Origin: a virus
IMG/VR virus record: IMGVR_UViG_3300047160_018755
Span: 118,280 to 182,279 of that record
DNA: 64,000 nucleotides
Reading direction: 5' to 3' (one strand)
This document shows, one piece after another, positions 8,111-30,243 of the stretch. The notes under the pieces were generated by a model. It was not told the DNA's origin. It ran no database searches and saw nothing but the letters and a program-made list of their open reading frames with translations. The stretch's first letter is position 1. Each line of letters opens with the position of its first letter. A program made the position numbers and the translations under genes.

Positions 8111-8117
8111 AAGATTA
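8111..8117 (-). promoter_or_regulatory. late-type motif TAATCTT
   Basis: Overlaps the stop of 8115-11282, upstream of the lipoprotein gene. Confidence 0.5.
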
Positions 8118-13525: not shown

Positions 13526-13705
13526 TCAGTCTGTGGCGCGACCGTTGCGGTACTCGCTCTCCCACTTCTCCTCGGCATCCTCGTCACGCTCGGGCATCTC
13601 GGTCCCCAGGAGCTTGTCCAGCTCCTTCTCGAACTTCTTGCGGGGCTCGCCGCGCTCCATCGCAGCCGCGATCTCTGCGAGGCGCTTCTTGATGTCGGTG
13701 CTCAT
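13526..13705 (-). CDS. small hypothetical protein
   Basis: ATGA overlap with the thyX stop. Confidence 0.6.
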   Translation of the reverse strand: MSTDIKKRLAEIAAAMERGEPRKKFEKELDKLLGTEMPERDEDAEEKWESEYRNGRATD

Positions 13706-14571
13706 CGTCCCACCCTCGTGAACGTGGGGTCGACCGTCTCGCGGAACTGGATCCAGCCGCGGAGATTGCCCGACCACGAATTCTCCGTCGACAAACCACT
13801 CCGCTCACACACCTTGCACTCGGCGTGGCCGCACGGAGCGCCGAGAGCCTGCGCGACGTGCTCGAAAGGGCTCCAATGGCCCGAGGCCATCAGACGGTCT
13901 GCAAGCGTCACATCCTCCCGCATGTCGCGCTTGCCATCGTGAGTGAGGTATGAGACACGCGCGCAACGACCTGCGGAAACCTTGCAGAAATACGGGTCAC
14001 CGGGAAGAACTTCTTCATCCTCCTGGATGAGCGGCAGATGCCACTGGCCCGGTTGCAGAAAGCGCGGAGTGTTTGCGTTGTACTGACGCTGCATCTCTTT
14101 TGCAACCCAGCCGATCTCGGGCTGCGCGTCGGGATGGCACCTGAGCTTGAACCAGTTGGTCCACTCCGTCGCCGTGCAGATGACCGTGATGAACATCCAC
14201 GGCTCCAAGACCCTGTTCGCGATCTGCTTGTGGAAGCCGAGGACACCGAGGAGCCACGCCACAAGAAGCGCGCCCCAGCGAGCGGAAAGCCAGAGGCGCT
14301 TGACCAGAGCCAGGCGCCAGCCAGTCAGCTCCTCGCGAGCCTGCATGCCGCTCTGGTTCTTGCCCCACCACACGGGCATCGCCGGGTCGCGACGGATCTG
14401 CTGCATGAGCTTCTTCGTCGGGATGGCGCGGCTGGAGGCCGAGTTGCGCGAGAAGAGGCGGTGGGTCATCAGCTCCGCGTGGACGAACCGCGGGTACGTC
14501 AGCTCCCAGGTGGTGAGCCGGACGCCGTTGGTGCTGACAGAGTCAGCGAGGATGCGAACGCGATAGGCCAC
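13702..14571 (-). CDS. thyX: FAD-dependent thymidylate synthase
   Basis: ELMTHRLFSRNSASSRAIP, HKQIANRVLEP, HWSPFEH. Confidence 0.9.
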   Translation of the reverse strand: MAYRVRILADSVSTNGVRLTTWELTYPRFVHAELMTHRLFSRNSASSRAIPTKKLMQQIRRDPAMPVWWGKNQSGMQAREELTGWRLALVKRLWLSARWGALLVAWLLGVLGFHKQIANRVLEPWMFITVICTATEWTNWFKLRCHPDAQPEIGWVAKEMQRQYNANTPRFLQPGQWHLPLIQEDEEVLPGDPYFCKVSAGRCARVSYLTHDGKRDMREDVTLADRLMASGHWSPFEHVAQALGAPCGHAECKVCERSGLSTENSWSGNLRGWIQFRETVDPTFTRVGR

Positions 14572-15802: not shown

Positions 15803-17200
15803 TTACTGGAGGTTGTCGACGAGGACGTTCTTGCGGGGCTGCATCACGGCCAGCGTGCAGAAGCGGAAGTGCGCCTCGGGCTGGCTGAGGTCCGTGACGG
15901 CGAGCTTGAGGCGGCTGTAGGGAGCCAGCTCCTTCATCGCCATCGTGTCGCCCTCGATCAGGAAGCCCGTGACGAATCCCGGGATCTTGTTGCCGAGGTC
16001 CGTGAAGGTCACGGCCGCGCCCGCGTTCGCCGCGATGCGACCGATGAACTTCTCCGTGCCCGCCGCGCCGCCCGCGAGAGTGCGGTAGACGTTGAAGTAG
16101 CGGGTCGTGGAGACCGGCGTGAGGGAGATGGTGACCTTGTCACCCGCGTTGGTGATCGTCACCGACTGAGTCGCGCAGGCCACGCCCTCGCCCAGCTCGC
16201 TGCACGCCGTCGCCTTGTAGATGTAGACGTCGTTCGCGAGGAAGTTCGAGACCGCGTTCGCGTCGGTCGCGCCCGTCGGAGCACCCATCGTCGGGGCCGA
16301 GGGAGCGGTCGAGCGCGCCGGAGCGGGCTTGGCCTTGCCACGGAGGAACATGCTGCCCTCGATCTCGACCGTGCCGCCCGAGACCCACTGCTTGCGGAGG
16401 TCGCCGCCCGTCGCGCCCTGCGGGCTGCCCGCGAGGATGATCTTCTCCTTGCCGAAGACGATCTTGTTGTACGCGCTCAGGACCTTCGGGTCGACGACGA
16501 GCTTGTCGGCGTCACCGAAGTTGAGGGCCGAGCGAACGCTCGCGTCCTCGACGATGTCCTGCGTGAGGGGACCGCCGCCCGCGATCACGACCGTGTCGTC
16601 CGAGCCGAACTCGGCGAACATGAGGTCGCGCGCCTGGCGCTGGTTGTCCGACTGACGGACCTGGAGATCCAGGCCGTGCATGTTCGGGAGCGGAGCCACC
16701 GAGAGCGGGTTGCCGTCGAAGACGCCCGCGTTCGAGAAGTCCGCGAGGCCGCGGAACAGGTCGAACTCGATGTCGCCCGCGATCTTCTTCGCCGCGTTGG
16801 CCGCCTCGCGCTCCTCCGCCTTCACGCCGTCGACCGTGGTCACCATGTTGGCGACGATGGTCACGCGACGCGTGTGCGAGTAGAACGCCATCGGGACGGT
16901 CACACGGACGTAGTCCGCGTTCTCTTCCTGGCCGATCGCGCCTTCGAGCTGGGCCGAGCCGCCGAAGATGCCGTAGCTCAGCTGACGATCGAACTGGGCG
17001 AGCGTCGACTTGCACGACTCGACCTTGACCATCTTCTGGAGCTTGATGTGGGACTCGTCGAAGGTCACGACCTGCATGACGTTGGACAGGTCCTCCGTCT
17101 GGAGGGCCGCGCCTTGAACGAGCGTGCTCGGAGCGGCGTTGTAGTTGCCGGCCTCCAAGGCCTTGGTGAGGGACTGGAGTTCAGCGATCAGATCGGACAT
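15803..17200 (-). CDS. major capsid protein (SPO1/Twort-like HK97 fold with Ig-like insertion)
   Basis: Short propeptide ending LTKA, GAALQTEDL, STLAQFDRQLSYG, IEFDLFRG, YVFNVYR-type insertion; position after protease and scaffold. Confidence 0.85.
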   Translation of the reverse strand: MSDLIAELQSLTKALEAGNYNAAPSTLVQGAALQTEDLSNVMQVVTFDESHIKLQKMVKVESCKSTLAQFDRQLSYGIFGGSAQLEGAIGQEENADYVRVTVPMAFYSHTRRVTIVANMVTTVDGVKAEEREAANAAKKIAGDIEFDLFRGLADFSNAGVFDGNPLSVAPLPNMHGLDLQVRQSDNQRQARDLMFAEFGSDDTVVIAGGGPLTQDIVEDASVRSALNFGDADKLVVDPKVLSAYNKIVFGKEKIILAGSPQGATGGDLRKQWVSGGTVEIEGSMFLRGKAKPAPARSTAPSAPTMGAPTGATDANAVSNFLANDVYIYKATACSELGEGVACATQSVTITNAGDKVTISLTPVSTTRYFNVYRTLAGGAAGTEKFIGRIAANAGAAVTFTDLGNKIPGFVTGFLIEGDTMAMKELAPYSRLKLAVTDLSQPEAHFRFCTLAVMQPRKNVLVDNLQ

Positions 17201-17242: not shown

Positions 17243-18217
17243 TTACTTGAGCAGGTGGGCGATCTGGTCGACCTTCACCTTGCCGAGGTCGAAATCGACG
17301 ACGAGCGTCTTCTCCGACTTGGACAGGGTTCCGGCAACGACCTTCTCACGGAGCTTCGCGCGAACCTGCTCGCGCGACATCTGGGTCACATCGGCGGCGG
17401 GGGCCGCGGCGGGGATGTCGGCGGCGAACTTCACCGACTTGCGGAGGGGAGCCTCCAGGACGTGCTTGACGGCCTTGACGAGCGGGAGGACCGCCTCCTG
17501 CACCTTCGCGTTGATCTCGGCCGTGATCTCGGCCTCGCTCTTGTGGAGCGACTCGCCACCCTTGACCTTCGAGAGGTCGCCGTTGGCCTTGGGATCGTTG
17601 CTCATGCCCGACTCCGCCTTCAGCGCGGGCGCCGGAGCGCTCGCATCCGCGGGGGGAGCCGACGCCGCCGGGGGCGGCGCGCCAGCAGAGGCATCCGGGC
17701 CCGCCGGAGGCGGGGCGCCAGCGCCAGCGTCCGCACCAGCACCCGCGAGGGTCTGCATGAGGACCTGCTTGAGGCACATGTAGTGCAGCTTCTGGTCTTC
17801 CGGCGAGAGCTTCGAGTACTCCGCCATCAGAGCCTGCGGGTCGATCGGACCCTGGTCGGCCGCGGGGTCACCGCTGCCGTCCGGAGACGCCGAAGCGTCC
17901 GGAGACGCCGAGCCAGCGTCCGCCGGGGGCGGAGCCGAACCGTCGTCACCCGCGGGCGACGCCGAAGCGTCGGCCGGAGGGCCGTCCGAACCCGTGGCGT
18001 CGGGCGAAGCCGAGGCCGCATCCGGAGACGCCGAGGCCGCGGAGGTGTTGTCCCCCGTGGGATCGGTGTCCGACGCGTCCGACTTGTCGTCCGCCGGGGT
18101 GTCCTCGCCGGGGCGAGCCTTGGCGAGTTCCGACTTCGCGAGATTGCCCAGCTCCTTCTCGACCTCCGCGAGGATGGCCGAGAGCTGGCTCTCGTCGATC
18201 TGTGCAGTGTTGGACAT
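17243..18217 (-). CDS. capsid scaffold-like protein
   Basis: Directly upstream of MCP; acidic Ala/Pro/Ser repeats (DASASP); LAKS, LAKA, LHKS, LVKA, LRKS, LSKS. Confidence 0.6.
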   Translation of the reverse strand: MSNTAQIDESQLSAILAEVEKELGNLAKSELAKARPGEDTPADDKSDASDTDPTGDNTSAASASPDAASASPDATGSDGPPADASASPAGDDGSAPPPADAGSASPDASASPDGSGDPAADQGPIDPQALMAEYSKLSPEDQKLHYMCLKQVLMQTLAGAGADAGAGAPPPAGPDASAGAPPPAASAPPADASAPAPALKAESGMSNDPKANGDLSKVKGGESLHKSEAEITAEINAKVQEAVLPLVKAVKHVLEAPLRKSVKFAADIPAAAPAADVTQMSREQVRAKLREKVVAGTLSKSEKTLVVDFDLGKVKVDQIAHLLK

Positions 18218-18253: not shown

Positions 18254-18733
18254 TTACTGCGACGACAGGAGCGGGAAGTAGAGGTCGGGCTCGAAGGACG
18301 CGATCAGCTTGGTGCCGGTGTTGAACGTGGTGATGGTGGGGACGGTGCCGTTCGTCTCCTCCCAGTACTCGACGCGCGTGCCGCGCTTCGAGCAGGTCGA
18401 GGAGAGGGCGAGCCAGTGAGCCTTGCTCACGTAGGCCGCGATGCAGGACGCGTTGCCGCCCGTGCCGGCCTCGACCGCGATCTGGATCACGCTCGGGGTG
18501 TAGACGGGCTGCGTGTTGTTCACGATGTCCTTCTGGAGGTTCCAGTCGCGGGGACGGACGCAGATGAAGACGTTGTCCTCGGTCGTGGCGGCGCTGCCGT
18601 CGTTGAGCGAGATCGTCGCGAAGCCGTTCGCGTCGAAGCCGTCGACGATCGAGGCGTAGCTCGAAACGCGCTGGCGAAGCTCGTCCGAGAGTTCGAGAGC
18701 GAGCTTCTGAGACTTGGTGCTGGTCGATGCCAT
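18254..18733 (-). CDS. putative virion structural protein
   Basis: First gene of the scaffold/MCP unit; CAATCT at 18788-18793 upstream. Confidence 0.5.
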   Translation of the reverse strand: MASTSTKSQKLALELSDELRQRVSSYASIVDGFDANGFATISLNDGSAATTEDNVFICVRPRDWNLQKDIVNNTQPVYTPSVIQIAVEAGTGGNASCIAAYVSKAHWLALSSTCSKRGTRVEYWEETNGTVPTITTFNTGTKLIASFEPDLYFPLLSSQ

Positions 18734-18848: not shown

Positions 18849-19235
18849 ATGCCTAACCTGTACGTCTGCTCGGGTTGCAAAAACCCTAAGCCTCGCGGGG
18901 AGTTCCACGAGGCTCATTACACGGACCGCAAGCGCGTCGTGACCTCCCGTTGCCGCGAGTGCCGATCCGAGGACTACTTCACCGACCGTTACGAAACGGT
19001 GTGCGGGCAGTGCCGGCGCCATCGACCGCTGAACCAGAACCGCGTGTGCAAGAAGTGCAACGAGGACTCCGGCCTGCGCGAGTGCCGCGGGGCGTGCGGA
19101 TCGCTCCTACCGGCGCTGCTGTCGTTCGACGGCAAGCGCACGACGTGCAAGTCGTGCCGGAAGCTTAGGCAGCTGCCTTCGGCGTCTTCGGCGGCTTCGG
19201 CAGCGCAGTCGCGACGGTCGGCGATGCCGGCGTAA
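18849..19235 (+). CDS. tandem zinc-finger protein with no recognisable nuclease domain
   Basis: Six CxxC/CxxxC pairs; repeats resemble the N-terminal finger of the endonuclease at 12727. Confidence 0.6.
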   Translation: MPNLYVCSGCKNPKPRGEFHEAHYTDRKRVVTSRCRECRSEDYFTDRYETVCGQCRRHRPLNQNRVCKKCNEDSGLRECRGACGSLLPALLSFDGKRTTCKSCRKLRQLPSASSAASAAQSRRSAMPA

Positions 19236-22200
19236 CGGTCTGGTGGACCGCGTGCTGGCCAGCATCGTGGATCGGCAGCGGACCTTCATGACCCGGCATC
19301 AGTGAGTGGGCGAGGTTCGGCACCTGGCCGACCTTGTACTGGCGCTTGTCGCCCATGATGCCGAGCTTCTTGCCCATCTGGCGCATCGCTGAGGGCTGCG
19401 CGACCTTCTGCTCCTTCGCCTTGTAGAGCGCGAGGTCGGCGGACGCGGGGTCCGGGCCGAAGCCGAAGGACATGCTCATCTTGTGCTGGCCGCCGAGAGG
19501 GGCGAGCGAGTTGAGCTTGTCGCTCAGCGCACGGTGGAACTGCGCCGCGTGCTCGTGGCTCGGGACGTGCGCGATGAATTCGTCGCCGCCGTTGCGCCAG
19601 AGCTTGCCGTTCTCCTTGCCCACGGTCTCGTCCATCGCCTCACGAGCGGCGTTGCCGAAGGCCTTGATGGCGGAGTCGCCGCCCGCGTGGCCGAACTTCT
19701 CGTTGATCGCGCGGAAGTCGTTGCCGTCCATCTGAATGTACGCGCCGGTCTTGCCGCCCGGGTTCTGCTTCAGGTGGTCGGTGAACGCGAGCTTGTTGCC
19801 GAGCCCCGGAACCATGGGGTCCGAGAAGAAGTGCTTCGTGGCGATGTCGCCCGAGCCCTTCGGCATGGCGCCACGAGCTTCCGCATCGCGGATGTGGCGC
19901 ACCAGCTCGTGCGGCTCCATCTCCGCCGGATCCGCCTTCATGAGCGACTCGAACGCGGCCTCCGCCTTCATGACGGAGTCGAACTGGCTCTTCTGCTTCG
20001 CCTTGTACGAGATCTTGGCGGCACCGGACTTGTGGTTTTCGAGGATCTTCTGCACCTCGGGCTGCGACAGCTTCTCGCCATCGAGCAGGTAGTGCCCGTC
20101 CTTCACTTCGAGGGTGTGCGGCTTGTCGTGGCCGGCACGCTTGTACTCGAAGACCGACGGCGGACGCGGGAGACGTGCGTTGTTCTGCATCTTCTCCGGG
20201 TGCGCGTGCTCGCGGAACTTGTCGTTCTGACCGTCCATCGTCTCGACCTCGACACGGACGTGTGGAGACATCTTGAGTCCGTGCAGCTTCGTCAGGCCCT
20301 GGATGGTGAGCGGTCCCTCAGGCAGAGTCGCCCCGATGAGGCCGTGGTAGTCTTCGAGGTGGTGAACCTGGCCCTGGTGCAGGACGAAGCGGCCCGCGAG
20401 GTGCTCGGTGTTGCCGTGGTCCTTGTCCTTGAAGAACACGGAGTGCACAGTCGGCACGTTCGGGTCCGAAATCTTGGCGACCTGCATGTCGTGGACGTTC
20501 TTGCGCAGCTGGATGCCGAGGTTCTCGATCTGCATCGACTTCGCGAAGTCCGACAGGTCGTCGTGCTTCTCGCGGTACTCGGCCATCTCGTAGAGGTGTG
20601 GGACGATGTGCTGGTAGTACATCATCATCGCCGGGATCTCGCCGAACTCCTGCTGGTACGCGAGGAAGAGCGCGACGAGCTTGCCCATCATGTGCTCGTC
20701 CGGCTCCTTGTCGGAGAACGCGTTCTTCTTGAGCTGGGGCGCCTCGCTGCCGAACACGCGCTCCATCTGCTTCCACATGGCCGAGTGCGTGCTCAGCTCG
20801 TTCTGCGAGGCGGTCGTGTCGATGCCGCGGGCCTTCTCGTCACGGGGGATGGTCGCCCAGTGCAACCAGAAGCCCGGACCAACAGCGTCCTCGTTGTCCT
20901 TGAAGTGCTTGCCCGCCACCGGGTCCTGCGCGATCGAGCGCGGCGCCGGGTGGTTCTTGGCGTACCAGCGATCCATCGCCTCCAGGATGTGGTGGTTGCC
21001 GGCGCGCCACAGGCCTGTCTTCAGGTACTGGAGCGTGCGACCGTCGGTCGCGTTGTCCATCCCGAACATGTGGCGGATGTAGTGCGTGTCGTGCACGGCG
21101 GCGTTCGAGCCACCGGTCAACAGAAAGGCGTATCGTCCCGTCTTCGGGGCCAGCCCGGGGACAGGAGTGCCCTCGTACTTCGGGAACTTCTCGTGCAGAG
21201 CACGGTTCACGAAGGGAGAGAGCTTGTCTTGGAGGCCGGCGTCCGTCGCCTCCTGCTTGAACTTCGCGCGGTACCAGCGCTTGCCCGTCAGGCGCGAGGC
21301 GGAGTACTTCGCGATGCTGGGGTGCTCTTTGTACTCGTCCGGGTTGAAGTCGGTGTCGTCGTTGCCCGTGAGCATGCGCGGATCGAAGGGAAGCGGCGCA
21401 TCGTCATCGTCGTCAGCGCCCGGCTCACGCTCGGCCGGAGCCTGACCCTTCTTCGTGAACTTGCCAGCAGCGTTCGCCTCGTTCATCTTCTGGTCGACGT
21501 AGTTCTTGTGGTCGTCGGTCAGACCCGCGGCAGCCGCCTGCGCCTTCAGCTTCTTGCGGAAGGCGTTGCGCTGGTTCTTCCACTGGATCTCCTTCACCTT
21601 GTGCTGCATCAGCTCCGCAGTGGCGGCGCGTGCATCGGTGCCGTGCTTCTGGATCAGCTCCATCATCGTCGGGTGGAGCTTGTGGTACTGGGCGATGTTG
21701 TCGAACTTGTTGTTCGCCAGCATGAAGGACTTCACGTCACCGACCTTGCGGCGACCGCCTTTCTCGCTGTCGCTGCTCAGGAAGTTGCCCTTGTCGTTGG
21801 CATACTCCTCGGTGTCGTTCTTCGGGAGGTTGTTCGCCTTGTCGCGAGCCTTCCAGTCCTTGCGGAGCTTGCGAAACTCAGGGTCCGCCGGGTCGAGGCC
21901 ATGCTCCTGCCAGCTGTCGTAGAGGTGGCCCTCCATCAGCTGCTGGACGGAGACCGGCGTGTTCGGCGACATGGCCGACATGAGGTACGCGATCTTGACG
22001 ATGTCCGGCGGAAGCGTCTTCGCTTCGAGATTTTGCTTGTTGCGGACGAATCCAGGCAGAACCTTGCTGCGGATGAACTCCTTGATCTCGGGAGTCTCCA
22101 ACATCTTCGCGAATTCGGGGTTCGGACCGTTGTGCGGGATCTGATTCATGTCCGCACCTGGCGCCACGTGCAAAACGCCGTTGTGGTAGAAGGGCGAGAG

Positions 22201-23478
22201 CTTCGCGAGCGGGTGAGTCTTCTGCTCGAAGCCCGTGTCGGGGTTGTACATCGGGAAAGAGCCCTTGCGCGTGTGCAAGATGCCCTTTTGCTCGTCGAAC
22301 ACCCACTTGTTGGTCTTCACCTTCGGCGCAGCGACCGGAACGCCTCGAATCGAGGCCACGGCGAGCTTCACCGGGTTGTCATCGGGCTCCTCGGGCTTCG
22401 CAACCTTCGGCGCAGCGACCTTGCCGGTCTTTTTCGGAGTTTTTGCCGGTTTCGGAGCCGCGGAAACGGGCTTGGGCGCTGCCTTTTTCGGCGTCGCGGC
22501 CGGTTTCTTGCCGATCTTGGCTGCCGGTGTGGCCGAAGGCTCCTTTTTCGCGAGGTGCTGCTTCTTGACGTGGTAGTCCTCGACCACATCCGTGAAGTGA
22601 TCGATGAAATCGTCGCTCGCCTCGGGCATCAGCGTCTTCGCGAAGCCGCGGAACTCGCTGCGGTTGAAGACCTCCATGTAGCCGCCCTCGGAGAGCTTCT
22701 GGATCAGGTCTCCGGTCGTCCACTTCTTCGCCTTGCCGGGCTTCTTCGGGCCGAGATCTTCCTTCTGGAGAGCCGCGCCGCCTTCGAGAGCACTCGGGGC
22801 GGCCGAAGCGGTGCCCGCGGCGAGCGCCTTGCTCAGGTCGTCGACCATCGGGTCTCCGACCGTGCCCCACGAGCTGCCGAGGCGCTGGAACATCGGATCG
22901 GTCTCACTCTTCTCGGCGTCGGAGAAGTCGAGGAGGTCACGCACCTTCGTCTTGACGTGCTTCTTCTCGAATCCCTCGGGCGCGTTCGGATCTTCGATGA
23001 GTCCCGACACCGCCGTGCGGTTGCAGGGCTTCACGGTGACGGCCACGCGACGCACGACGGACTCCGCGAGGCGGTTGTCCTCCTTCTTGAGCGTCGCACC
23101 TTCGACCGAGTAGCGGCAGACGATGGGCTCGTTGTTCGCGGCGTGATCGCGGATGATGGCGGCGATGCGCTTCGCCTCTTCGTGGCCGGCGCCGTCATAC
23201 AGACGGCAGACGCCGTAGATGTACGGAAGTTTGATCTCGTCCCAGTAGCGCCGCTGGCGGTCGTTTTCGCAGTCGTCGCGCTTGTAGATCTTCTTCGCCT
23301 TGAGGACGATGCCGACCAGGGTGGTCGCGCTCTTGTCACCGGGGGTGTGCTCCCAGTTCAGAAGACAGGTGCCCTTCTCGACATCGGAAATGTCAGCGCC
23401 CGCGACGTCGAGGACTTCGCCCGAGGAATCGATGGCCTCGGAACCGAGGACACCGTCAATCATCATGCCGGTTGACAC
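19165..23478 (-). CDS. prohead protease fused to an HhH-GPD glycosylase-like domain and a C-terminal GGDEF diguanylate cyclase
   Basis: N-terminal DSSGEVL, LNWEH, YSVEG, TVKPCN (HK97-type protease); VPGLAPKTG...HDTHYIRH at 21061-21162; SDPMVPGLGNK, MDGNDFRAINEKFGHAGGD, RNGGDEF (19576-19590), SFG, ADLALYKAK. Confidence 0.8.
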   Translation of the reverse strand: MSTGMMIDGVLGSEAIDSSGEVLDVAGADISDVEKGTCLLNWEHTPGDKSATTLVGIVLKAKKIYKRDDCENDRQRRYWDEIKLPYIYGVCRLYDGAGHEEAKRIAAIIRDHAANNEPIVCRYSVEGATLKKEDNRLAESVVRRVAVTVKPCNRTAVSGLIEDPNAPEGFEKKHVKTKVRDLLDFSDAEKSETDPMFQRLGSSWGTVGDPMVDDLSKALAAGTASAAPSALEGGAALQKEDLGPKKPGKAKKWTTGDLIQKLSEGGYMEVFNRSEFRGFAKTLMPEASDDFIDHFTDVVEDYHVKKQHLAKKEPSATPAAKIGKKPAATPKKAAPKPVSAAPKPAKTPKKTGKVAAPKVAKPEEPDDNPVKLAVASIRGVPVAAPKVKTNKWVFDEQKGILHTRKGSFPMYNPDTGFEQKTHPLAKLSPFYHNGVLHVAPGADMNQIPHNGPNPEFAKMLETPEIKEFIRSKVLPGFVRNKQNLEAKTLPPDIVKIAYLMSAMSPNTPVSVQQLMEGHLYDSWQEHGLDPADPEFRKLRKDWKARDKANNLPKNDTEEYANDKGNFLSSDSEKGGRRKVGDVKSFMLANNKFDNIAQYHKLHPTMMELIQKHGTDARAATAELMQHKVKEIQWKNQRNAFRKKLKAQAAAAGLTDDHKNYVDQKMNEANAAGKFTKKGQAPAEREPGADDDDDAPLPFDPRMLTGNDDTDFNPDEYKEHPSIAKYSASRLTGKRWYRAKFKQEATDAGLQDKLSPFVNRALHEKFPKYEGTPVPGLAPKTGRYAFLLTGGSNAAVHDTHYIRHMFGMDNATDGRTLQYLKTGLWRAGNHHILEAMDRWYAKNHPAPRSIAQDPVAGKHFKDNEDAVGPGFWLHWATIPRDEKARGIDTTASQNELSTHSAMWKQMERVFGSEAPQLKKNAFSDKEPDEHMMGKLVALFLAYQQEFGEIPAMMMYYQHIVPHLYEMAEYREKHDDLSDFAKSMQIENLGIQLRKNVHDMQVAKISDPNVPTVHSVFFKDKDHGNTEHLAGRFVLHQGQVHHLEDYHGLIGATLPEGPLTIQGLTKLHGLKMSPHVRVEVETMDGQNDKFREHAHPEKMQNNARLPRPPSVFEYKRAGHDKPHTLEVKDGHYLLDGEKLSQPEVQKILENHKSGAAKISYKAKQKSQFDSVMKAEAAFESLMKADPAEMEPHELVRHIRDAEARGAMPKGSGDIATKHFFSDPMVPGLGNKLAFTDHLKQNPGGKTGAYIQMDGNDFRAINEKFGHAGGDSAIKAFGNAAREAMDETVGKENGKLWRNGGDEFIAHVPSHEHAAQFHRALSDKLNSLAPLGGQHKMSMSFGFGPDPASADLALYKAKEQKVAQPSAMRQMGKKLGIMGDKRQYKVGQVPNLAHSLMPGHEGPLPIHDAGQHAVHQTVTPASPTVATALPKPPKTPKAAA

Positions 23479-23826: not shown

Positions 23827-24411
23827 CACCTCGGACATCTTGAACACCCGGGGCGTCTTCCCGTCCGGGAGGAGATGGACCCTCTTGCACTCTTTGCAGA
23901 GGTCATTGTCCCGTACGGGAATGAAGAACACGTACGGGTCCTCGTTGCCGATGACGTCACCTGCACGAGCAACACCTTCGAGGGTCGCCATGTTCCGCGC
24001 GGTCGTGCCCTCGGTGTCCACGATCGAAACGACCGCAGCTGTGGTCTGATCCCACACCGGCTCCAGCTCGCTCATGAGGACGTCTTCGAGCGGCGCCTCC
24101 GGGTCCTTGTTCAGGGCCGTATGCACAGCGTGGACGACGCGAGCCTTCGTCCTCTCCGCTTCCGCGTCGAGGTAGCCCTCCGCAATGACCGTCAGGTTGT
24201 GGAGCATCTTCTCGTTCGGCTCCATCGCCTCTTCAGCGGCGGCCGAGCGGTAGAGACCGGGCAGTGAGTAGCGCTTGATGTGCTTCTTGACGTCCGCCTC
24301 GTCCTTGAAGTAGCCCGGACCGAGGACGCGACCTTTGATGCGAGTGAAGACCCTGTCGACCGTGGTGTGGATCAGCCGCAGTGCTCGCTTCGTGAGAGTG
24401 AGCAGAGGCAT
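23659..24411 (-). CDS. MuF-like minor head morphogenesis protein
   Basis: DNDLCKEC...GLHPHCRCSL; follows the portal. Confidence 0.75.
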   Translation of the reverse strand: MPLLTLTKRALRLIHTTVDRVFTRIKGRVLGPGYFKDEADVKKHIKRYSLPGLYRSAAAEEAMEPNEKMLHNLTVIAEGYLDAEAERTKARVVHAVHTALNKDPEAPLEDVLMSELEPVWDQTTAAVVSIVDTEGTTARNMATLEGVARAGDVIGNEDPYVFFIPVRDNDLCKECKRVHLLPDGKTPRVFKMSEVSTGYHDRGTDTPSVSGLHPHCRCSLTGMARGYGFDGAGMIKFVSLDHDEYRAQRG

Positions 24412-26558
24412 TAGCTCTTCCTAATGCGGGCGGCCTCTTCCAGGATTTCCTTGCTGGCGTCCTTGAGGTCTTCCTTGAGGCCGTCACGCAGGCGGTCGAT
24501 CATCACGCGGTGCTGGGCGACGAGCTTGCGGCGCGAAGGCGGCAGGTCCGCCTCAGCCTTCGAGAGAACGTGGAGGGCCTGGTCGATCGAACGGCTCAGG
24601 TCCTGGCCGGGCGGGTTCTGCTCCTGCTGGAGCTTCGTCGCGCCACCGGCCTCGGGCGCGGACTGGCCACCGGCCGCGTCCTGCGCCGCGGCTTGCGGGT
24701 CACCGCCCTGCCCCGGAGGGCCGCTGTCACCGCCATCGTCGCCACCGCCCTTGTCGGCACCGTCACCGCCACCTTCGTCGGCCGCGGCTCCGCCCGGCTG
24801 CTGCGCCTGCTGAGCCTGCGCGTCCGCCTGCTGCTGCGCCTGCGCGACCTGGATGTTCTGGAAGTAGAACGGATCGCGGATGTAGTGGAGCTGCGGGTCA
24901 CGCGGGAGACCGAAGAAGTGCTCTCGGATCTCGTCGACGTAGAGGAACTTGTCCTGGATGGCCTGGAGCTGCGGGTTGAGCGGGAAGTCGCCGCCCCATG
25001 CCTTGCCGATGATGGGCTTCTCCACCTTCTGCATGACCTGGTCGTAGGTCATGTGGACCGGCATGTCCTGCTGGAGACGCGTCGACTCCTTCTCTTCGGT
25101 GTCAGCGTCGAGGCCCTTGAAGCGGAACGAGCAGAGCTTGGCGAGGCTCGGGTCGATGAGCGGGAAGATGACCGCGTTGATGAAGTCCTCGAACTGCGTC
25201 ATGATCGGGCGGATGCCCTGGTCACGCGCCGCCTCCAGGCGGTACTCGTTGTTCGACTCGGAGAGAGACTGGTTGTTCGTGCCGCGCGAGAGGTACGCCC
25301 AGCCCGGCAGCTCGTCCGGCGACATCTGGAACGCGGAGAGGATGACACGCGCGTTCATGTCGGTGAGGTACTGGAATTCGGCGTCGCGCGACGAGTTGTC
25401 GATCGACTGCCACTCGATGTCGTCCTTCGTGCCGACCGAGAACACGGGCATGCGCCACGCGTTGTTCACGCTGTTGATGCTCGCGTTGAACTGCTGCTTC
25501 ACCTGGTGCAGCGTCGTCTGGTCGACGTCGTCCGACTTGAAGACGAGCATGCCGTGCGAGGCGCGACCCGTCTGGAAGTAGAGCTTGTTGTGCGTGGTGA
25601 TGTTGATGTGCGTCGTCACCGCGCTGATCATCGTGTCGATCGGCGTGACGGGGTACCCATCCAGCTCGACGTCGACGACCGGGTAGAAGTTGTGGACGCG
25701 CATCTCGTCGTCCGTGAAGGCCTGCACGGGGCGACCGTCGATCACTTGGATCCAGGCGTACTCGCCCTTCTCGAACTTCGACTCGTCGATGTTGCTCTTG
25801 ACCCTCTCCGAGTCGTTGCCGTGCTGGAGGTCCTTGAGCATCTTGACGGCCTGCTCGCGGAGAGCCTGCGCGTGCGTGCGCTGCGGGGCAGCCTTGAAGA
25901 TCGTGCCGACGTCGGTCGGACGGAAGTGGTGGAACTTCTTCTCCGCGCCCAGCTGGTCCTGGTACACGATTTCGACCGCGATGCGTCCCAGGCCGACCGC
26001 GTTGCGCGTGGCCATCTGGATGAACTGCGCGAAGGAGAGGTGGTCCTTCTTGTCGACGCCATCGGTGCTGCCGCACGTCCAGAACTTCTGGACCGCCTCC
26101 TGCTTGCGAGTGTCCAGCTCCTTCAGCTCGGCCGGAGTGAGGCGTTCTTTGACGCCGACGTTCGGCTCGATCACGTAGCCGGTGGCGAAGCGGTCCGGAC
26201 GGGGGCGACCAAACGACCCCATCTGCGTCTCGCGAGCGCGGATGATGGCGGCGACGAGGTCGTCCTGGATGATGATGCGCTTGAGGAGCGAGTCGGGGAG
26301 GAGCTTGACCTTCGCGCGGTAGACCGACTGGTACTGGTTGACCAGGTTGGGGTCAGTCTCGAACGCGAGGCGCTCGACCGATTCCTTCGGCCCGTTCAGG
26401 AGGTCGAGGATCGACTTCGCGAGCGTGTCGGGAGCTTCCTTCTTCTCGCCGGGCTCCTCGATCGCAAAACGAATGGTCGCCGGACGCTTGGGCAGCGCCG
26501 CCATCGATTCGTCAAACGACTTGACGAGCGAAGCTCCTGCGATGGGCAAGTTCGCCAT
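24411..26558 (-). CDS. portal protein
   Basis: GYPVTPI, YFQTGRASHGML, NAWRMP, FQYL...AFQMSPDE, RDQGIRP; located between terL and MuF/protease. Confidence 0.8.
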   Translation of the reverse strand: MANLPIAGASLVKSFDESMAALPKRPATIRFAIEEPGEKKEAPDTLAKSILDLLNGPKESVERLAFETDPNLVNQYQSVYRAKVKLLPDSLLKRIIIQDDLVAAIIRARETQMGSFGRPRPDRFATGYVIEPNVGVKERLTPAELKELDTRKQEAVQKFWTCGSTDGVDKKDHLSFAQFIQMATRNAVGLGRIAVEIVYQDQLGAEKKFHHFRPTDVGTIFKAAPQRTHAQALREQAVKMLKDLQHGNDSERVKSNIDESKFEKGEYAWIQVIDGRPVQAFTDDEMRVHNFYPVVDVELDGYPVTPIDTMISAVTTHINITTHNKLYFQTGRASHGMLVFKSDDVDQTTLHQVKQQFNASINSVNNAWRMPVFSVGTKDDIEWQSIDNSSRDAEFQYLTDMNARVILSAFQMSPDELPGWAYLSRGTNNQSLSESNNEYRLEAARDQGIRPIMTQFEDFINAVIFPLIDPSLAKLCSFRFKGLDADTEEKESTRLQQDMPVHMTYDQVMQKVEKPIIGKAWGGDFPLNPQLQAIQDKFLYVDEIREHFFGLPRDPQLHYIRDPFYFQNIQVAQAQQQADAQAQQAQQPGGAAADEGGGDGADKGGGDDGGDSGPPGQGGDPQAAAQDAAGGQSAPEAGGATKLQQEQNPPGQDLSRSIDQALHVLSKAEADLPPSRRKLVAQHRVMIDRLRDGLKEDLKDASKEILEEAARIRKS

Positions 26559-27559: not shown

Positions 27560-27572
27560 AAGATTGCGGCTA
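27560..27572 (-). promoter_or_regulatory. late-type motif TAGCCGCAATCTT
   Basis: Identical 13-mer to 13135-13147, at the terL/next-gene junction. Confidence 0.6.
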
Positions 27573-29501
27573 GATAACCCAGCCAAAACGGCCCCGGCGG
27601 CCCGAAGAACCGGCACTACCCTCGGAAAGGCCTCCGCGCTCCTCGATGACCTTCGACATCCAGTTCTCGACGGTGTAGACGTGCGGCGGATGGGTCGGGG
27701 CCGGGGCTGGGGAATCGCCAGCGACCGCCGGGCGACCCTTTTCGGCCCCGAAAACGTTCATGATCGCGTAACGAAGGGCATCGCACTCGTCGTCCTCGAC
27801 CTCGGTGGGCCTGTCCGTCACCCTTTCGGCCGCGTCCGTGATCCAGTGGTACTTCATGAGGCGCTTGACGAGCAGCTCGACGCCTGGGTCTCCCGCCAAG
27901 AAGTAGAGCAGGGGCTCGGTCATGGGCGGCTGGAGCTTCAGCTGGACGGCGCTGATGCCGCCGACCACCGTGCCGGCGACCTTCTGCCACTCTCGCATGC
28001 GGAACCCGGCGCGGCGGAGCACCGCGATCATTTGCTTGTTCTCCATGTCGGGGAAGATGACCGGGTTCCAGTCCCTGATGCGCTTGTTGCAGACGTCGAC
28101 CATCTGGTCAGGAAGCAGCTCGGGCTCGGCGATGACGTCGACCACAAACGCACGGTAGCCGTCGCAGAAGATGGTGACCACGGCGAAGTTGTGCGCGTAG
28201 CCGAAGTCCATGCCCGCGTAGCAGAGCATGTCGCGCTGGCGCATGATGTCGATCAGGCCCTTCTTGTCCATCCGCGGGTCGACCGGGAAGCCCAAGATCA
28301 TCTCCGCCATCTGCGCCGCGGTGATGACGTGCTTGTCGCGCGAGAAGTTCGGATAGACCAAGCCCTCGGTCGACGGCTGCTTGCAGAGCAGCTGCGCGAG
28401 GACGTAGTCGATCGGCGCGTTCATCATGTTCGCGACGTGGTTGATGGGCTTGAGCAGCTCCGACTTCGACTTCTGGTGCGTCGCGAGACGGCCGTGGCAC
28501 GCAGCGAAGATCTTGCAGTTCTTCAGGCAGCCGACGAAGCCTTCCTCCTTGGTGAACTTCGCCTGCTCGGGCTCGGTGAGACCCTTCCACTTCGCCTCGC
28601 CGATGGCCTGGAGGCGCTTGGGGTCAACGTAGATCGGGATCTTGCCCTGCTCGGGCAGGTGGCGCTCCGGCGGGCAGGCGCGAGTGACGTCGAGGATGTT
28701 CCAGTGGCGGACGTGGAGCCTGATCTCACCCGTCTCCTGGTCGACGGCCTCATCAATCTCGCGCTGCACGAGGCCGGTGGAGATTTTGCGCGTCGACGTG
28801 AGCACCGTGGTGGGCATCCAGCCGTTGATAGGCGCCGGGATGAACTTCGCCTCCTGGTACGCGCGCTCGTTCGTAACGACGTCGACCTCGTCCACGACGA
28901 AGAACGGCACGTGCTCAGAGTTGGCGCCAGCCGGGGTGCAGATGACGATCTTGATGTAGTTGCGAACCTCCTCCCACTGCGCGTCACGCAGCTCTGGCGA
29001 CAGAGCCCTGAACCTCGACTCGGAGAAGCTCTCTCCCGTCTCCGGGTGGATGTAGCGGGCAAATTCGACGCGGCGGACGTTGTCGCCGGAGACGAAGTCA
29101 CGGAGGATGGGCTTGCTGAAAAACTTCTTGACGTACTCTTGGCTCTTCTCCGATTGCGGCTCGATGGCGGCCATGTGCGCGACGTTGCGGCGCAGGTGGA
29201 CGACGGCCAGAACCTCCAGCATTGCGGCGCAGAGGGTCTTGAAGGAGTCGCGAGACGCGTAGTACATGACGCGCGCGAAGGTGGGGTCGTTGTTGTACAG
29301 CGCCTTCGAGTAGCACTCCCAGAGCATGTCCATGGGCGTACTCGTCGAGTCGGGGTCGACGATGCAGTCGGGCACGTCGAACTCGAAGAAGAGCCGGATC
29401 CACTTGTGGAGGGCGTCGCGTGTCGTGCACGGCACGAAGGCGATCTTGCGCTTGAGGGCAAGGATCTCTTCCGGCGACTTGGGCTTCTTAGCTTCAGCCA
29501 C
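27570..29501 (-). CDS. terL: terminase large subunit
   Basis: Walker A-like ASRDSFKT, Walker B FVVDEVD, TSTR, nuclease GMDFGYAH and DDECDALRYA. Confidence 0.85.
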   Translation of the reverse strand: MAEAKKPKSPEEILALKRKIAFVPCTTRDALHKWIRLFFEFDVPDCIVDPDSTSTPMDMLWECYSKALYNNDPTFARVMYYASRDSFKTLCAAMLEVLAVVHLRRNVAHMAAIEPQSEKSQEYVKKFFSKPILRDFVSGDNVRRVEFARYIHPETGESFSESRFRALSPELRDAQWEEVRNYIKIVICTPAGANSEHVPFFVVDEVDVVTNERAYQEAKFIPAPINGWMPTTVLTSTRKISTGLVQREIDEAVDQETGEIRLHVRHWNILDVTRACPPERHLPEQGKIPIYVDPKRLQAIGEAKWKGLTEPEQAKFTKEEGFVGCLKNCKIFAACHGRLATHQKSKSELLKPINHVANMMNAPIDYVLAQLLCKQPSTEGLVYPNFSRDKHVITAAQMAEMILGFPVDPRMDKKGLIDIMRQRDMLCYAGMDFGYAHNFAVVTIFCDGYRAFVVDVIAEPELLPDQMVDVCNKRIRDWNPVIFPDMENKQMIAVLRRAGFRMREWQKVAGTVVGGISAVQLKLQPPMTEPLLYFLAGDPGVELLVKRLMKYHWITDAAERVTDRPTEVEDDECDALRYAIMNVFGAEKGRPAVAGDSPAPAPTHPPHVYTVENWMSKVIEERGGLSEGSAGSSGRRGRFGWVI

Positions 29502-30243
29502 GGACCAGCTCCTCCGCCTTGGTGCGGTCCATGCCACCCTTCACGAGGAATTCGATCTTCTCCTCGGGCGTCTCGGGAGGCGCTGCGATCTGTTTCGGCG
29601 GCTCCGTGACCTCGGCGTCGATGATGTCCTCGGCCAGGAGGTCATCCATGATGTTCGTCGCCTCTTCCGCGGACACCTTCTGAGCGACGTGCTGGATCTG
29701 ACCGGTGTGCTTGACCTCGACCTTCTTCGCGTCCGTTCCGGACGCCTTCATGTACAGCTCGGTCAGGTCGCGCAGCTCCTTCATGTTCTTCGGGAGCGGG
29801 ACGCCGTTGAGGTGTGACTCGTCGCCCGTCGCGATGTAGCGCTTGAGGGCATCGTTGTGCTTCATCTGCGAAGCACGGAGAAGGTTGGCGAGGAAGTCCT
29901 GCGTCTCCAGCTGGACCGTCTCGACCTTGGTGGGGACCTCGCTCTTGAGCGTCGCGACGGCGTCACCCTTGCGCTCGTCCCACTGCCACATCACGCGGGC
30001 GGCAACGATCTGGCCCAGGCTGAAATGCGGGAAGAGGCGCCGCAGCTCTTCGCAGCCGTTGCCGGCCTTGTAGAGCTTGAACAGCTCCTCCTGGTTCTGC
30101 TCCGGGATGCCGCGGACCTCGTTGTTGACGAAGTACTTGTACGCGGCTCGTTCGCGGTCGGAAAGCGCCTTGATGGCCGTCGCGAGACGGACCTCCTTGT
30201 CGCTACTTGTCTGAAGCTCCTTGCTTGGCTGCGGCGTCGGCAT
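29494..30243 (-). CDS. probable terminase small subunit
   Basis: Overlaps the terL start; HTH-like N-terminus and helical core; TAATCTT at 30306-30312 upstream. Confidence 0.5.
   Translation of the reverse strand: MPTPQPSKELQTSSDKEVRLATAIKALSDRERAAYKYFVNNEVRGIPEQNQEELFKLYKAGNGCEELRRLFPHFSLGQIVAARVMWQWDERKGDAVATLKSEVPTKVETVQLETQDFLANLLRASQMKHNDALKRYIATGDESHLNGVPLPKNMKELRDLTELYMKASGTDAKKVEVKHTGQIQHVAQKVSAEEATNIMDDLLAEDIIDAEVTEPPKQIAAPPETPEEKIEFLVKGGMDRTKAEELVRG

What the first reader, a model, noticed from the sequence alone, without database searches (positions are those of the whole stretch)
19400..19830. Intact GGDEF diguanylate cyclase fused to the C-terminus of the prohead protease
Seen: SDPMVPGLGNK, MDGNDFRAINEKFGHAGGD, WRNGGDEF, SFG and ADLALYKAK are all present. 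The RxxD inhibitory site is absent (KENG at that position). The guanine-specificity Asp of GHxxGD is retained, which predicts c-di-GMP rather than Hypr-type cGAMP. No sensor domain is present. Inference: an unregulated DGC released by protease self-processing could spike c-di-GMP on entry, altering pili, motility, EPS receptors (superinfection exclusion) or the cell cycle. It could also act late during assembly.
Basis: partly seen in the sequence, partly recalled or inferred. Interest (0 to 1): 0.85.

Follow-up and report, generated by a model that had tools for sequence, protein, structure and literature searches.

The report
Head protease fused to GGDEF cyclase
A 182-kb uncultured phage related to Myxococcus phage Mx1 makes one ~1,435-residue head-assembly protein that joins its capsid-maturation protease to a DNA-glycosylase-like enzyme and an apparently working c-di-GMP synthase, most likely so that the enzymes are loaded into the capsid, cut free and carried into the next host, although packaging, delivery and activity have never been measured.

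Summary
The minus-strand gene 19165..23478 ends in a genuine GGDEF domain (Pfam 37.5 bits, cut-off 23.8). All catalytic motifs are intact and there is no RxxD feedback site.

- The central 580 residues look like an HhH-GPD DNA glycosylase, with the EndoIII-type Lys and Asp invariant.
- A conserved ~150-residue domain of unknown fold always precedes the GGDEF domain.
- A 31-residue copy of the capsid protein's N-terminus follows the protease.

The protease-GGDEF link is clade-wide, with hundreds of metagenomic relatives. The cyclase is either fused or encoded by the next gene, as in Mx1.

Leu-x-Lys|Ala/Ser motifs mark the domain borders and are 4.6-fold enriched in the scaffold proteins, which fits self-processing.

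Loading into the capsid and delivery to the host remain inference. This scan has reported the same architecture before on at least six other genomes. The idea of GGDEF domains in delivered 'polyvalent' proteins dates from 2017, so I class this as a new variant of a known kind.

The parts
19165..23478 (-). Whole head-module polyprotein gene. It is 1437 aa from GTG 23478 or 1433 aa from ATG 23466; the stop codon is at 19165-19167.
   Evidence: ORF list and translation. A 100% identical 1433-aa database entry is P0003. Homologues begin either MSTGM.IDG or M.IDG.
22828..23466 (-). Prohead (capsid-maturation) protease domain, aa 5-217. Candidate catalytic residues are His44 (nt 23347-23349) and Ser124 (nt 23107-23109).
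22753..22836 (-). Conserved Leu-Ser-Lys|Ala site (aa 215-218), followed by a copy of the capsid protein's N-terminal arm (aa 218-242).
   Evidence: BLASTP against the window's own MCP gives 19/31 identical, E 6e-6. The motif occurs only at these two places in the 182-kb genome in six frames. The Lys is invariant. The motif is present in 139 of 150 protease-family representatives and also in SPO1 gp3.2.
22279..22752 (-). Basic Lys/Pro/Ala-rich linker (aa 243-400, pI 9.9, two TPKK motifs).
   Evidence: Composition. Low pLDDT and poorly conserved.
20539..22278 (-). HhH-GPD DNA-glycosylase-like domain (aa 401-980) with an acidic disordered insert (aa ~684-730). The HhH-Lys...Asp motif lies at aa 772-804 (nt 21067-21165), with Lys779 and Asp797.
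20536..20547 (-). Phe-Ala-Lys|Ser (aa 978-981). Relatives carry Leu-Arg-Lys|Ala about 12 residues further on. This is the putative cut site before the cyclase module.
   Evidence: It is one of only three alignment positions where [LMVFI]xK[AS] is kept in >=40% of 55 sequences. Stand-alone cyclase proteins of relatives start at the equivalent of aa 990-1013, and the first Mx1 gene ends here.
19945..20535 (-). Conserved domain of unknown fold ('mid3', aa ~982-1178) that always precedes the GGDEF domain.
   Evidence: It is a separate 150-aa gene in Mx1. It is present in all stand-alone and fused cyclase forms. There is no PDB sequence relative and no Atlas hit.
19933..19944 (-). Leu-Met-Lys|Ala (aa 1179-1182), the putative cut site between mid3 and GGDEF.
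   Evidence: Leu is kept in 41/41 and Lys in 40/41 sequences in alignment A4. The Mx1 gene border lies here.
19408..19806 (-). GGDEF diguanylate-cyclase domain (aa 1225-1357). The GGDEF motif is at nt 19576-19590.
   Evidence: Pfam 37.5 bits. The motifs are conserved across 133 family members.
19168..19383 (-). Conserved basic C-terminal tail (aa 1366-1437) with the motif LAHSL.PG.EGP.P.
   Evidence: Conserved in both fused and stand-alone cyclase proteins. Unique in the genome. Function unknown.
15803..17200 (-). Major capsid protein. Its N-terminus (aa 8-38, nt 17087-17179) carries Leu-Thr-Lys|Ala plus the arm that is copied in the polyprotein.
   Evidence: phrog_752, E 2.7e-51. Translation. 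58.5% identical to the Mx1 MCP and distantly related to SPO1 gp6.1.
17243..18217 (-). Acidic scaffold-like protein (324 aa) with six [LMVFI]xK[AS] motifs.
   Evidence: Syntenic in all ten loci. Motif count is 6 against 1.26 expected; over ten phages it is 56 against 12.2.
24411..26558 (-). Portal protein, upstream neighbour in the head module.
   Evidence: phrog_12 and related families. It has seven LxK[AS] motifs against 1.6 expected.

Best explanation
The gene encodes a capsid-internal 'cargo' polyprotein.

Shown here:
- The domain order is an N-terminal SPO1 gp3.2 / T4 gp21-type prohead protease, a copy of the capsid protein's N-terminal cleavage site and arm, a basic linker, an HhH-GPD glycosylase-like enzyme, a conserved domain of unknown fold, a GGDEF domain with a complete active site and no feedback site, and a conserved tail.
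- The protease-cyclase association is kept, fused or as adjacent genes, across a large clade of 150-200 kb phages.

Inferred:
- The protease end takes the whole chain into the procapsid.
- The protease then cuts after Leu-x-Lys at the domain borders. The same signal lies at the capsid protein's N-terminus and is repeated in the scaffold.
- This frees a ~27 kDa GGDEF-plus-tail fragment (aa 1182-1437), or a ~50 kDa fragment that also contains mid3.
- The fragments stay in the head with the DNA and are ejected into the next host.
- There the cyclase pairs up and converts GTP to c-di-GMP without product inhibition. This changes host c-di-GMP-controlled behaviour (surface structures, motility, exopolysaccharide, cell cycle) from the first minutes of infection.
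For: - GGDEF domain above the Pfam cut-off.
- In 133 family members the core motif is GGDEF in 117 and GGDE-x in 14. The metal-site Asp and the guanine-contacting Asn are kept. The GHxxG-Asp position is Asp in 103 and Asn in 30. RxxD is present in 0 of 133.
- In distant relatives the GGDEF segment is as conserved as the protease (50-60% identity) and much more conserved than the domains between them (24-38%).
- Protease fold, invariant His/Ser and homology to SPO1 gp3.2.
- The gene sits between portal and scaffold/MCP in all ten loci examined.
- All five 'GGDEF-less' polyproteins checked have the cyclase as the very next gene.
- About 27 clusters join the protease directly to the cyclase module.
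- The 31-residue match to the MCP N-terminus, unique in the genome.
- LxK[AS] is conserved at only three alignment positions, all of them domain borders and Mx1 gene borders.
- The motif is enriched 4.6-fold in scaffolds of ten phages and in the portal, and absent from terminase and ThyA.
- Relatives carry typical delivered-effector domains (PBECR5, HipA/PI3K-like kinase) on the same chassis.
- Proteases of the related Herelleviridae type are detected in purified virions (PMC5618024, PMC3601020).
- The phage has no EAL or PilZ gene of its own, so any target is a host one.
- The concept is laid out by Iyer et al. 2017, PMC5512222.
Against: - There is no proteomic, enzymatic or infection data for any member, Mx1 included.
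- Prohead proteases and scaffolds are usually degraded and expelled, so fusion to one does not by itself mean retention in the head.
- In most relatives the cyclase is a separate protein, so covalent linkage is not needed and a separate targeting signal would have to exist.
- The count of LxK[AS] in the polyprotein itself is not above chance (6 against 4.9).
- Comparable conserved 4-mers with Glu or Arg in place of Lys also exist.
- The P1' Ala/Ser at the 1181 site is kept in only about half of the sequences.
- The family lacks the usual GRN motif after ALYxAK, so activity could differ from textbook cyclases.
- A GGDEF domain needs a partner to act, and I could not test dimerisation.
Confidence: 0.5

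Rival explanations
1. The cyclase works late, in the cytoplasm of the cell that makes it, and is not delivered. It is expressed with the head genes and raises c-di-GMP during assembly, for example to change the cell surface, block superinfection, stop motility or time lysis. Fusion to the protease only couples its amount and timing to head production, or keeps it inactive until processed.
For: - The gene lies in the late structural module.
- In most relatives the cyclase is a free-standing protein.
- Fusion and fission have happened many times, with at least 17 changes on a protease-domain tree, so covalent loading is dispensable.
- Proteases and scaffolds normally leave the head (general knowledge of HK97 and T4 assembly).
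Against: - The strict position next to the protease in every locus, and the repeated re-fusion to it, are hard to explain by timing alone.
- The same chassis carries PBECR5 and kinase domains that are typical of delivered proteins.
- The capsid-arm copy and the border motifs point to handling inside the procapsid.
Confidence: 0.22
2. The GGDEF domain makes a nucleotide other than c-di-GMP, or makes c-di-GMP mainly as a counter-defence tool. It would act as a decoy, competitor or desensitiser for host cyclic-nucleotide immunity (CBASS, type III CRISPR, Panoptes-like systems). It would be part of a wider phage nucleotide toolkit that includes the mCpol and NUDIX proteins of the same genome.
For: - The genome also encodes an mCpol domain (Pfam 50 bits) and a NUDIX-ParB-kinase protein close by.
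- The family lacks the GRN motif, and 30 of 133 members have Asn at the guanine-contacting Asp position.
- M. xanthus, host of the only cultured relative, uses CBASS and type III-B CRISPR against phage (PMC11506125, listed).
- Iyer et al. proposed interference with host nucleotide signalling for GGDEF domains in polyvalent proteins.
Against: - The residues that specify guanine in PleD-type enzymes are present, and the Ser that marks Hypr cGAMP synthases is not seen in any member.
- The best structural sequence relatives are all bona fide diguanylate cyclases.
Confidence: 0.15
3. The domain is a non-catalytic head component, either a nucleotide- or DNA-binding or spacing module inside the capsid, or a GTP sensor controlling the protease. 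Its active-site motifs would be kept for binding only.
For: - A few members have degenerate motifs: EGDSF in P0090, GGDDF in P0024.
- Basic flanking segments suggest contact with DNA.
Against: 131 of 133 members keep the catalytic GGDE core together with the metal-binding Asp and the substrate-binding Asn and Arg. That pattern is expected for an enzyme under selection, not for a binding module.
Confidence: 0.06
4. The fusion is an artefact, either a chimeric assembly or a missed frameshift joining separate genes as found in Mx1.
For: Mx1 has three separate genes over the same stretch.
Against: - The frame is open for 1437 codons.
- About 65 independent clusters from different samples have the same full-length fusion, and about 35 have a shorter fusion.
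- The record is a complete genome with terminal repeats.
Confidence: 0.01

Closest known systems
Myxococcus phage Mx1 (OR576727.2): 'putative prohead protease' WNM70322 (1239 aa), hypothetical WNM70323 (150 aa), 'nucleotide cyclase' WNM70324 (243 aa)
   Same: It is the only cultured relative among 50,697 phage records. The head-module order is the same: terminase, portal, this locus, ~150-aa gene, scaffold-like gene, MCP. The three products align to aa 1-998, 1027-1157 and 1199-1402 of the window's protein. The MCP is 58.5% identical.
   Different: In Mx1 the module is split into three translationally coupled genes, whereas here it is one chain. The Mx1 genome announcement does not discuss these genes.
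Bacillus phage SPO1 gp3.2 head maturation protease with gp3.3 scaffold and gp6.1 capsid protein (Herelleviridae head module)
   Same: - The protease domains are homologous (E 2e-7; HMM 9e-15), with the same FNFDH and FSVEG motifs.
- gp3.2 also carries Leu-Asp-Lys|Ser followed by a copy of its own capsid protein's N-terminus.
- The gp3.3 scaffold has eleven [LMVFI]xKS motifs in 244 aa.
- The MCPs are distantly homologous.
- Proteases of this type are found in purified virions of Herelleviridae.
   Different: SPO1 gp3.2 is 256 aa with no enzyme cargo. Here about 1,200 residues of enzymes follow the protease.
Polyvalent proteins of phages and conjugative elements (Iyer, Burroughs, Anand, de Souza, Aravind 2017, PMC5512222)
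   Same: Several unrelated enzymatic domains sit in one polypeptide encoded among virion genes and are predicted to be delivered with the DNA. GGDEF is listed there as a rare constituent. PBECR domains, which occur in relatives of this protein, were defined there.
   Different: That paper reports the assemblin-like peptidase 'always at the C termini' and uses MuF or portal as the head anchor. Here the peptidase is N-terminal and is itself the likely anchor. The paper's exemplar is a firmicute prophage protein, not this clade. No HhH-GPD plus GGDEF combination is described there.
T4 gp21 with Alt and internal proteins; ejection proteins of phiKZ/SPN3US processed by their prohead proteases
   Different: In those phages the cargo proteins are separate genes with targeting peptides, and cleavage follows Glu rather than Lys. 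None is a nucleotide cyclase as far as I could find.
Canonical diguanylate cyclases (PleD, WspR, SadC/5m3c, DgcZ; Pfam PF00990)
   Same: The GGDEF fold family, the GG(D/E)EF half-site, the metal-binding Asp, and the Asn and Asp that contact guanine.
   Different: There is no RxxD inhibitory site, no GRN motif after ALYxAK, and no known sensor or dimerisation domain. The upstream domain has an unknown fold. The context is a phage head rather than a bacterial signalling pathway.
HhH-GPD DNA glycosylases (Endonuclease III, Ogg, MutY, AlkA) and the glycosylase-like aGPT-Pplase / amino-acid:DNA transferases of thymidine-hypermodifying phages (PMC5889632, PMC8989533)
   Different: No Pfam HhH-GPD or aGPT-Pplase match at E<=1. 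The domain is twice the usual size with a long acidic insert, and it is fused to a head protease. The substrate is unknown.

Membership tests
GGDEF diguanylate cyclase (PF00990) | Sequence match to the family model above the curated threshold | tested here: met
   37.5 bits against a cut-off of 23.8, aa 1225-1357 covering model positions 8-157 of 161. A six-frame scan gives 42.6 bits.
GGDEF diguanylate cyclase (PF00990) | Catalytic GG(D/E)EF half-site plus the metal-binding Asp | tested here: met
   GGDEF lies at aa 1297-1301 and the Asp of MDGNDF aligns with the first Asp of the DxD site in 5m3c. Both are invariant or nearly so in alignments A2 and A4.
GGDEF diguanylate cyclase (PF00990) | Guanine-specifying Asn and Asp (PleD N335 and D344 equivalents; Ser in Hypr cGAMP synthases) | tested here: met
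   The sequence here is INEKFGHAGGD. In the family the Asn is invariant, the last position is Asp in 103 and Asn in 30 of 133, and Ser never occurs. The residue roles come from established PleD and Hypr literature, recalled rather than tested.
GGDEF diguanylate cyclase (PF00990) | RxxD allosteric inhibition site five residues before GGDEF (common, not obligatory) | tested here: not met
   KENG here, and 0 of 133 family members have RxxD.
GGDEF diguanylate cyclase (PF00990) | Homodimerisation and synthesis of c-di-GMP from GTP | not testable with these tools
No biochemical data exist.
Prohead maturation protease of the assemblin / T4 gp21 / SPO1 gp3.2 kind | Assemblin-like fold | tested here: met
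Prohead maturation protease of the assemblin / T4 gp21 / SPO1 gp3.2 kind | Conserved catalytic His and Ser | tested here: met
   His44 and Ser124 are invariant in 40 diverse sequences. They align with the FNFDH and FSVEG motifs of SPO1 gp3.2. Their catalytic role is inferred, and the geometry was not inspected.
Prohead maturation protease of the assemblin / T4 gp21 / SPO1 gp3.2 kind | Gene placed between portal and scaffold/capsid genes | tested here: met
Prohead maturation protease of the assemblin / T4 gp21 / SPO1 gp3.2 kind | Cleaves capsid, scaffold and itself at a defined site | not testable with these tools
   Only indirect evidence: the shared LxK|A/S motif at the MCP N-terminus, in the scaffold (56 against 12.2 expected) and at the polyprotein domain borders.
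Polyvalent protein (Iyer et al. 2017) | Two or more unrelated enzymatic domains in one polypeptide of a phage or mobile element | tested here: met
   Protease, HhH-GPD-like and GGDEF domains. Relatives add PBECR5, DUF5661 or a HipA/PI3K-like kinase.
Polyvalent protein (Iyer et al. 2017) | Encoded with virion or packaging genes and transferred to the host with the DNA | tested here: inconclusive
   The virion-gene context is met. Transfer cannot be tested here.
HhH-GPD DNA glycosylase superfamily | Two-lobed helical fold with a helix-hairpin-helix | tested here: met
HhH-GPD DNA glycosylase superfamily | HhH motif followed by the catalytic Asp (and Lys in bifunctional enzymes) | tested here: met
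   hhalign of the family alignment against E. coli Nth gives one hit, exactly this motif. It places Lys779 on K120 and Asp797 on D138, E 0.003, probability only 10%. Both residues are invariant.
HhH-GPD DNA glycosylase superfamily | Match to Pfam HhH-GPD (PF00730) or aGPT-Pplase models | tested here: inconclusive
   No such hit at E<=1 with the single sequence. Profile-against-Pfam comparison was not possible.

The most novel reading that the evidence does not exclude
A whole clade of 150-200 kb phages, with Mx1 as its only cultured member, uses its capsid-maturation protease as a loading dock. Enzymes are strung behind the protease, or encoded next to it. They are taken into the procapsid, cut apart at Leu-x-Lys sites and injected with the DNA. 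One constant item of this cargo is a feedback-free diguanylate cyclase. The virion itself would therefore reset the host's c-di-GMP level at the moment of entry, before any phage gene is expressed. That would be the first case of a virus delivering a second-messenger synthase as a virion component. It would travel with a DNA-glycosylase-like enzyme whose target could be host DNA or modified phage DNA.
Probability: 0.3. Interest if true: 0.85.

Novelty: new variant of a known kind. Interest (0 to 1): 0.62.

Why it matters
c-di-GMP controls motility, pili, exopolysaccharide, development and the cell cycle in most bacteria, and it is especially well studied in Myxococcus. Phages are known to exploit or perturb this signal indirectly. 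I found no paper describing a phage that carries the synthase in its head module, let alone in its particle.

The link between the capsid protease and the cyclase is conserved in hundreds of metagenomic relatives. That argues for a real and important function.

Mx1 grows on M. xanthus laboratory strains, so the question is directly testable.

The chassis (protease, capsid-arm copy, Lys-specific cut sites) would also explain how large phages load enzyme cargo. It could serve as a tool for packaging proteins into capsids.

The HhH-GPD-like domain adds a second, unexplored activity.

Tried and rejected
- **Nucleotide search.** Megablast of 15 kb against 50,697 phage records gave no match.
- **N-terminal domain.** The Pfam, PHROGs and NCBIfam scans of the whole protein gave no hit in the N-terminal domain, and phmmer of that domain against PDB sequences found nothing. 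Only the fold and the SPO1 comparison identified it.
- **Central domain.** Foldseek against PDB and against BFVD gave nothing below E 0.1. Only the exhaustive VIA search found the HhH-GPD fold. The Atlas feature search gave only a weak DUF7178 lead, which I did not follow.
- **mid3 domain.** No Atlas hit and no PDB sequence relative.
- **Host clue.** The genome-contig scan returned one real relative, on a MAG contig binned as Saccharibacteria and probably a mis-binned phage. The other 79 loci were generic bacterial GGDEF genes, so there is no host clue and no prophage copies.
- **C-terminal tail.** I searched for a second copy of the tail motif elsewhere in the genome as a possible shared capsid-targeting signal and found none. 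Its resemblance to the scaffold C-terminus (AHLL) is too weak to use.
- **LxK[AS] count.** The motif count in the polyprotein itself is not enriched (6 against 4.9). The argument rests on conservation and position, not on count.
- **Published cleavage sites.** Literature searches for mapped cleavage sites of SPO1-like or Twort-like capsid proteins found nothing usable. From memory, Listeria phage A511 Cps loses its first 23 residues, but I could not check this.
- **aGPT-Pplase idea.** I considered whether the glycosylase-like domain and the kinase domains of relatives correspond to the aGPT-Pplase / 5-HMUDK pair of thymidine-hypermodifying phages. The kinase there is a P-loop enzyme, not PI3K/HipA-like, so the parallel is at best partial.
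- **IQ-TREE.** The run on 223 protease domains did not finish, so I used FastTree instead.
Full report
**Setting.** The window is the last 64 kb of a single 182,279-bp virus record with direct terminal repeats, rated 100% complete. GC content is about 63%. AT skew and ORF content show that 8-34 kb is transcribed on the minus strand.

PHROGs assign, in order on that strand:
- large terminase (27570-29537)
- portal (24411-26558)
- the gene in question (19165-23478)
- major capsid protein (15803-17200; phrog_752, E 2.7e-51)
- a ThyA-type enzyme (13702-14571)

The only cultured relative among 50,697 phage records is Myxococcus phage Mx1, which has the same gene order.

**The observation.** The minus-strand frame is open for 1437 codons. 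The long plus-strand ORF over it is a shadow frame.
- Pfam GGDEF scores 37.5 bits against a cut-off of 23.8.
- Six PHROG families and many NCBIfam cyclase models match the same stretch.
- The closest solved sequences are all diguanylate cyclases. With a family profile they reach E 5.6e-13.
- KENG sits where RxxD would be.

**The N-terminus is a prohead protease.** Sequence libraries were silent for this domain. A 40-sequence alignment (A1) gave an AlphaFold model with pLDDT >90 for residues 1-160.
- Foldseek returned only herpesvirus assemblins and T4 gp21.
- His44 and Ser124 are invariant.
- The domain is homologous to the annotated SPO1 head maturation protease gp3.2 (BLASTP E 2e-7, family HMM E 9e-15), with the His and Ser motifs aligned.

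**What lies between protease and cyclase.** Directly after the protease comes Leu-Ser-Lys-Ala followed by about 25 residues that match the N-terminus of the phage's own capsid protein. The match is 19 of 31 identical, E 6e-6.
- The motif occurs nowhere else in the genome in any frame.
- The same pairing is seen in Mx1 and in two of the other loci where the simple pattern search picked it up (L005, L008).
- It is present in 139 of 150 representatives of the protease family.
- SPO1 gp3.2 has the equivalent copy of the SPO1 gp6.1 N-terminus.

A basic TPKK-containing linker follows (pI 9.9).

Residues ~1005-1160 ('mid3') are conserved, with no recognisable relatives.

**The family.**
- A word-indexed search found about 100 clusters of 790-2515 aa on contigs up to 201 kb, most with GGDEF at the C-terminus.
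- A search for shorter proteins found more than 120 further clusters.
  - About 27 of these, of 700-790 aa, join protease and arm copy directly to mid3-GGDEF-tail.
  - About 80, of ~400 aa, are stand-alone mid3-GGDEF-tail proteins that begin at the equivalent of aa 990-1013.
- An exhaustive search with the protease domain found 768 clusters at 50% identity. Of the best 150, 81 carry the HhH-GPD-like domain and 31 carry a fused mid3 module, 28 of them with the GGDEF domain.
- All five polyproteins without GGDEF that I looked up have the cyclase as the next gene: Mx1, L006, L007, L009 and L010.
- A FastTree of 223 protease domains needs at least 17 switches between fused and unfused states. This is a rough figure from a short alignment.
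- Some relatives add PBECR5, DUF5661 or a HipA/PI3K-like kinase.
- Among one genome for each of 185,579 prokaryote species, only one probably mis-binned contig carries the module.

**Is the cyclase likely active?** Among 133 recognisable cores:
- GGDEF occurs in 117, GGDE-x in 14, and only two are degenerate.
- The metal-site Asp, the Asn and the Arg before GGDEF are kept.
- The guanine-contacting Asp is Asp in 103 and Asn in 30, and never the Ser of Hypr enzymes.
- RxxD occurs in none.

In distant relatives the GGDEF segment keeps 50-60% identity, whereas the middle domains fall to 24-38%. This pattern fits an enzyme under selection. Two features depart from textbook enzymes: the GRN motif is absent, and no known dimerisation domain is present. 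The phage has no EAL or PilZ gene.

**Processing.**
- In the 55-sequence alignment, [LMVFI]xK[AS] is kept in at least 40% of sequences at only three positions: aa 217, ~980-993 and 1181. All three are domain borders, and the last two coincide with the Mx1 gene borders.
- Leu1179 and Lys1181 are kept in 41 and 40 of 41 sequences.
- The scaffold-like proteins of ten phages hold 56 such motifs against 12.2 expected. The portal holds 7 against 1.6. Terminase, ThyA and two other neighbouring genes hold none.
- The SPO1 scaffold has eleven such motifs.

Weaknesses:
- The count in the polyprotein itself is at chance.
- Similar conserved 4-mers exist with Glu or Arg in place of Lys.
- No cleavage site has been mapped in this group. 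My literature searches found none.

**Packaging.** Proteases of the SPO1/Twort type are detected in purified virions (PMC5618024, PMC3601020). The architecture also matches the 'polyvalent protein' concept of Iyer et al. 2017, who list GGDEF among rare constituents. They describe assemblin-like peptidases only at C-termini.

Nothing in the Mx1 genome paper or in a 2026 preprint on myxophages mentions these genes. Packaging and delivery therefore remain inference. A late cytoplasmic role is the main rival.

**Verdict.** The protease-cyclase link is a clade-wide feature rather than a one-off fusion.

This scan has already reported the same architecture on at least six other genomes, with similar conclusions. 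Those notes are not independent evidence.

I class this as a new variant of a known kind (polyvalent or virion-delivered effectors) and rate its interest at 0.62, mainly because Mx1 and M. xanthus make it directly testable.

Noticed in passing
window 18849-19235 (+): A Cys-rich 128-aa ORF lies on the opposite strand, convergent with the polyprotein gene and overlapping its last 70 nt. It is conserved at the same place and orientation in all related loci (31-59% aa identity, E down to 1e-39). In L007 the corresponding gene is called with an Endonuclease_7 Pfam hit. There is no Pfam hit here.
   Followed up: partly
window 542-985 (-), part of an ORF that starts at 1069 and runs off the window start: An mCpol (minimal CRISPR polymerase) domain, Pfam PF18182 at 50 bits. 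This is a second palm-type nucleotide cyclase in the same phage.
   Followed up: partly
window 8115-11282 (-): A 1055-aa protein with NUDIX (74 bits), a weak ParB_N match and a weak PI3_PI4/HipA-like kinase match, plus six LxK[AS] motifs against 2.6 expected. Homologous NUDIX-kinase giants (946 to >1949 aa) follow the head module in relatives L003 and L004. It may be another multi-enzyme cargo protein.
   Followed up: partly
L093 (Bacillus phage SPO1) 4422-5192, 5192-5926, 5956-7362: The SPO1 gp3.2 protease carries, after its catalytic domain, LDK|S followed by a copy of the N-terminus of its own capsid protein gp6.1 (which has LNK|A). The gp3.3 scaffold has eleven [LMVFI]xKS motifs in 244 aa. 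The capsid-arm copy on the protease therefore predates the Mx1-like clade. I found no paper that mentions it.
   Followed up: partly
window 13702-14571 (-) and Mx1 L001 16157-17853: A ThyA-family enzyme sits directly next to the capsid gene; in Mx1 it is followed by a dNMP kinase. Together with the glycosylase-like domain, this raises the possibility that the clade has modified thymidine in its DNA. Not tested.
   Followed up: no
proteins P0086, P0093, P0024, P0063, P0098 (relatives): The same protease chassis carries other cargo: PBECR5 nuclease plus GGDEF; DUF5661 plus GGDEF; a GGDDF-variant GGDEF plus a PI3_PI4 kinase-like domain; or a HipA/PI3K-like kinase with the cyclase encoded by the next gene.
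   Followed up: partly
window 18887-18916 (-): A terminator-like hairpin with a 12-bp stem and a T run lies 250 nt after the polyprotein stop, inside the conserved ~430-nt gap that relatives also have before the next head gene.
   Followed up: no
L013 (CALMSM010000181.1, MAG labelled Candidatus Saccharibacteria): A 45-kb contig in a bacterial bin carries the mid3-GGDEF module at 39% identity plus the Cys-rich ORF. It is probably a phage contig binned by mistake.
   Followed up: no
window 18254-18733 (-): A 159-aa gene of unknown function is conserved between the cyclase and the scaffold gene in every related locus (145-154 aa there). One relative's neighbouring gene has a Gp80 Pfam hit. It could be a head decoration or accessory protein.
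   Followed up: no
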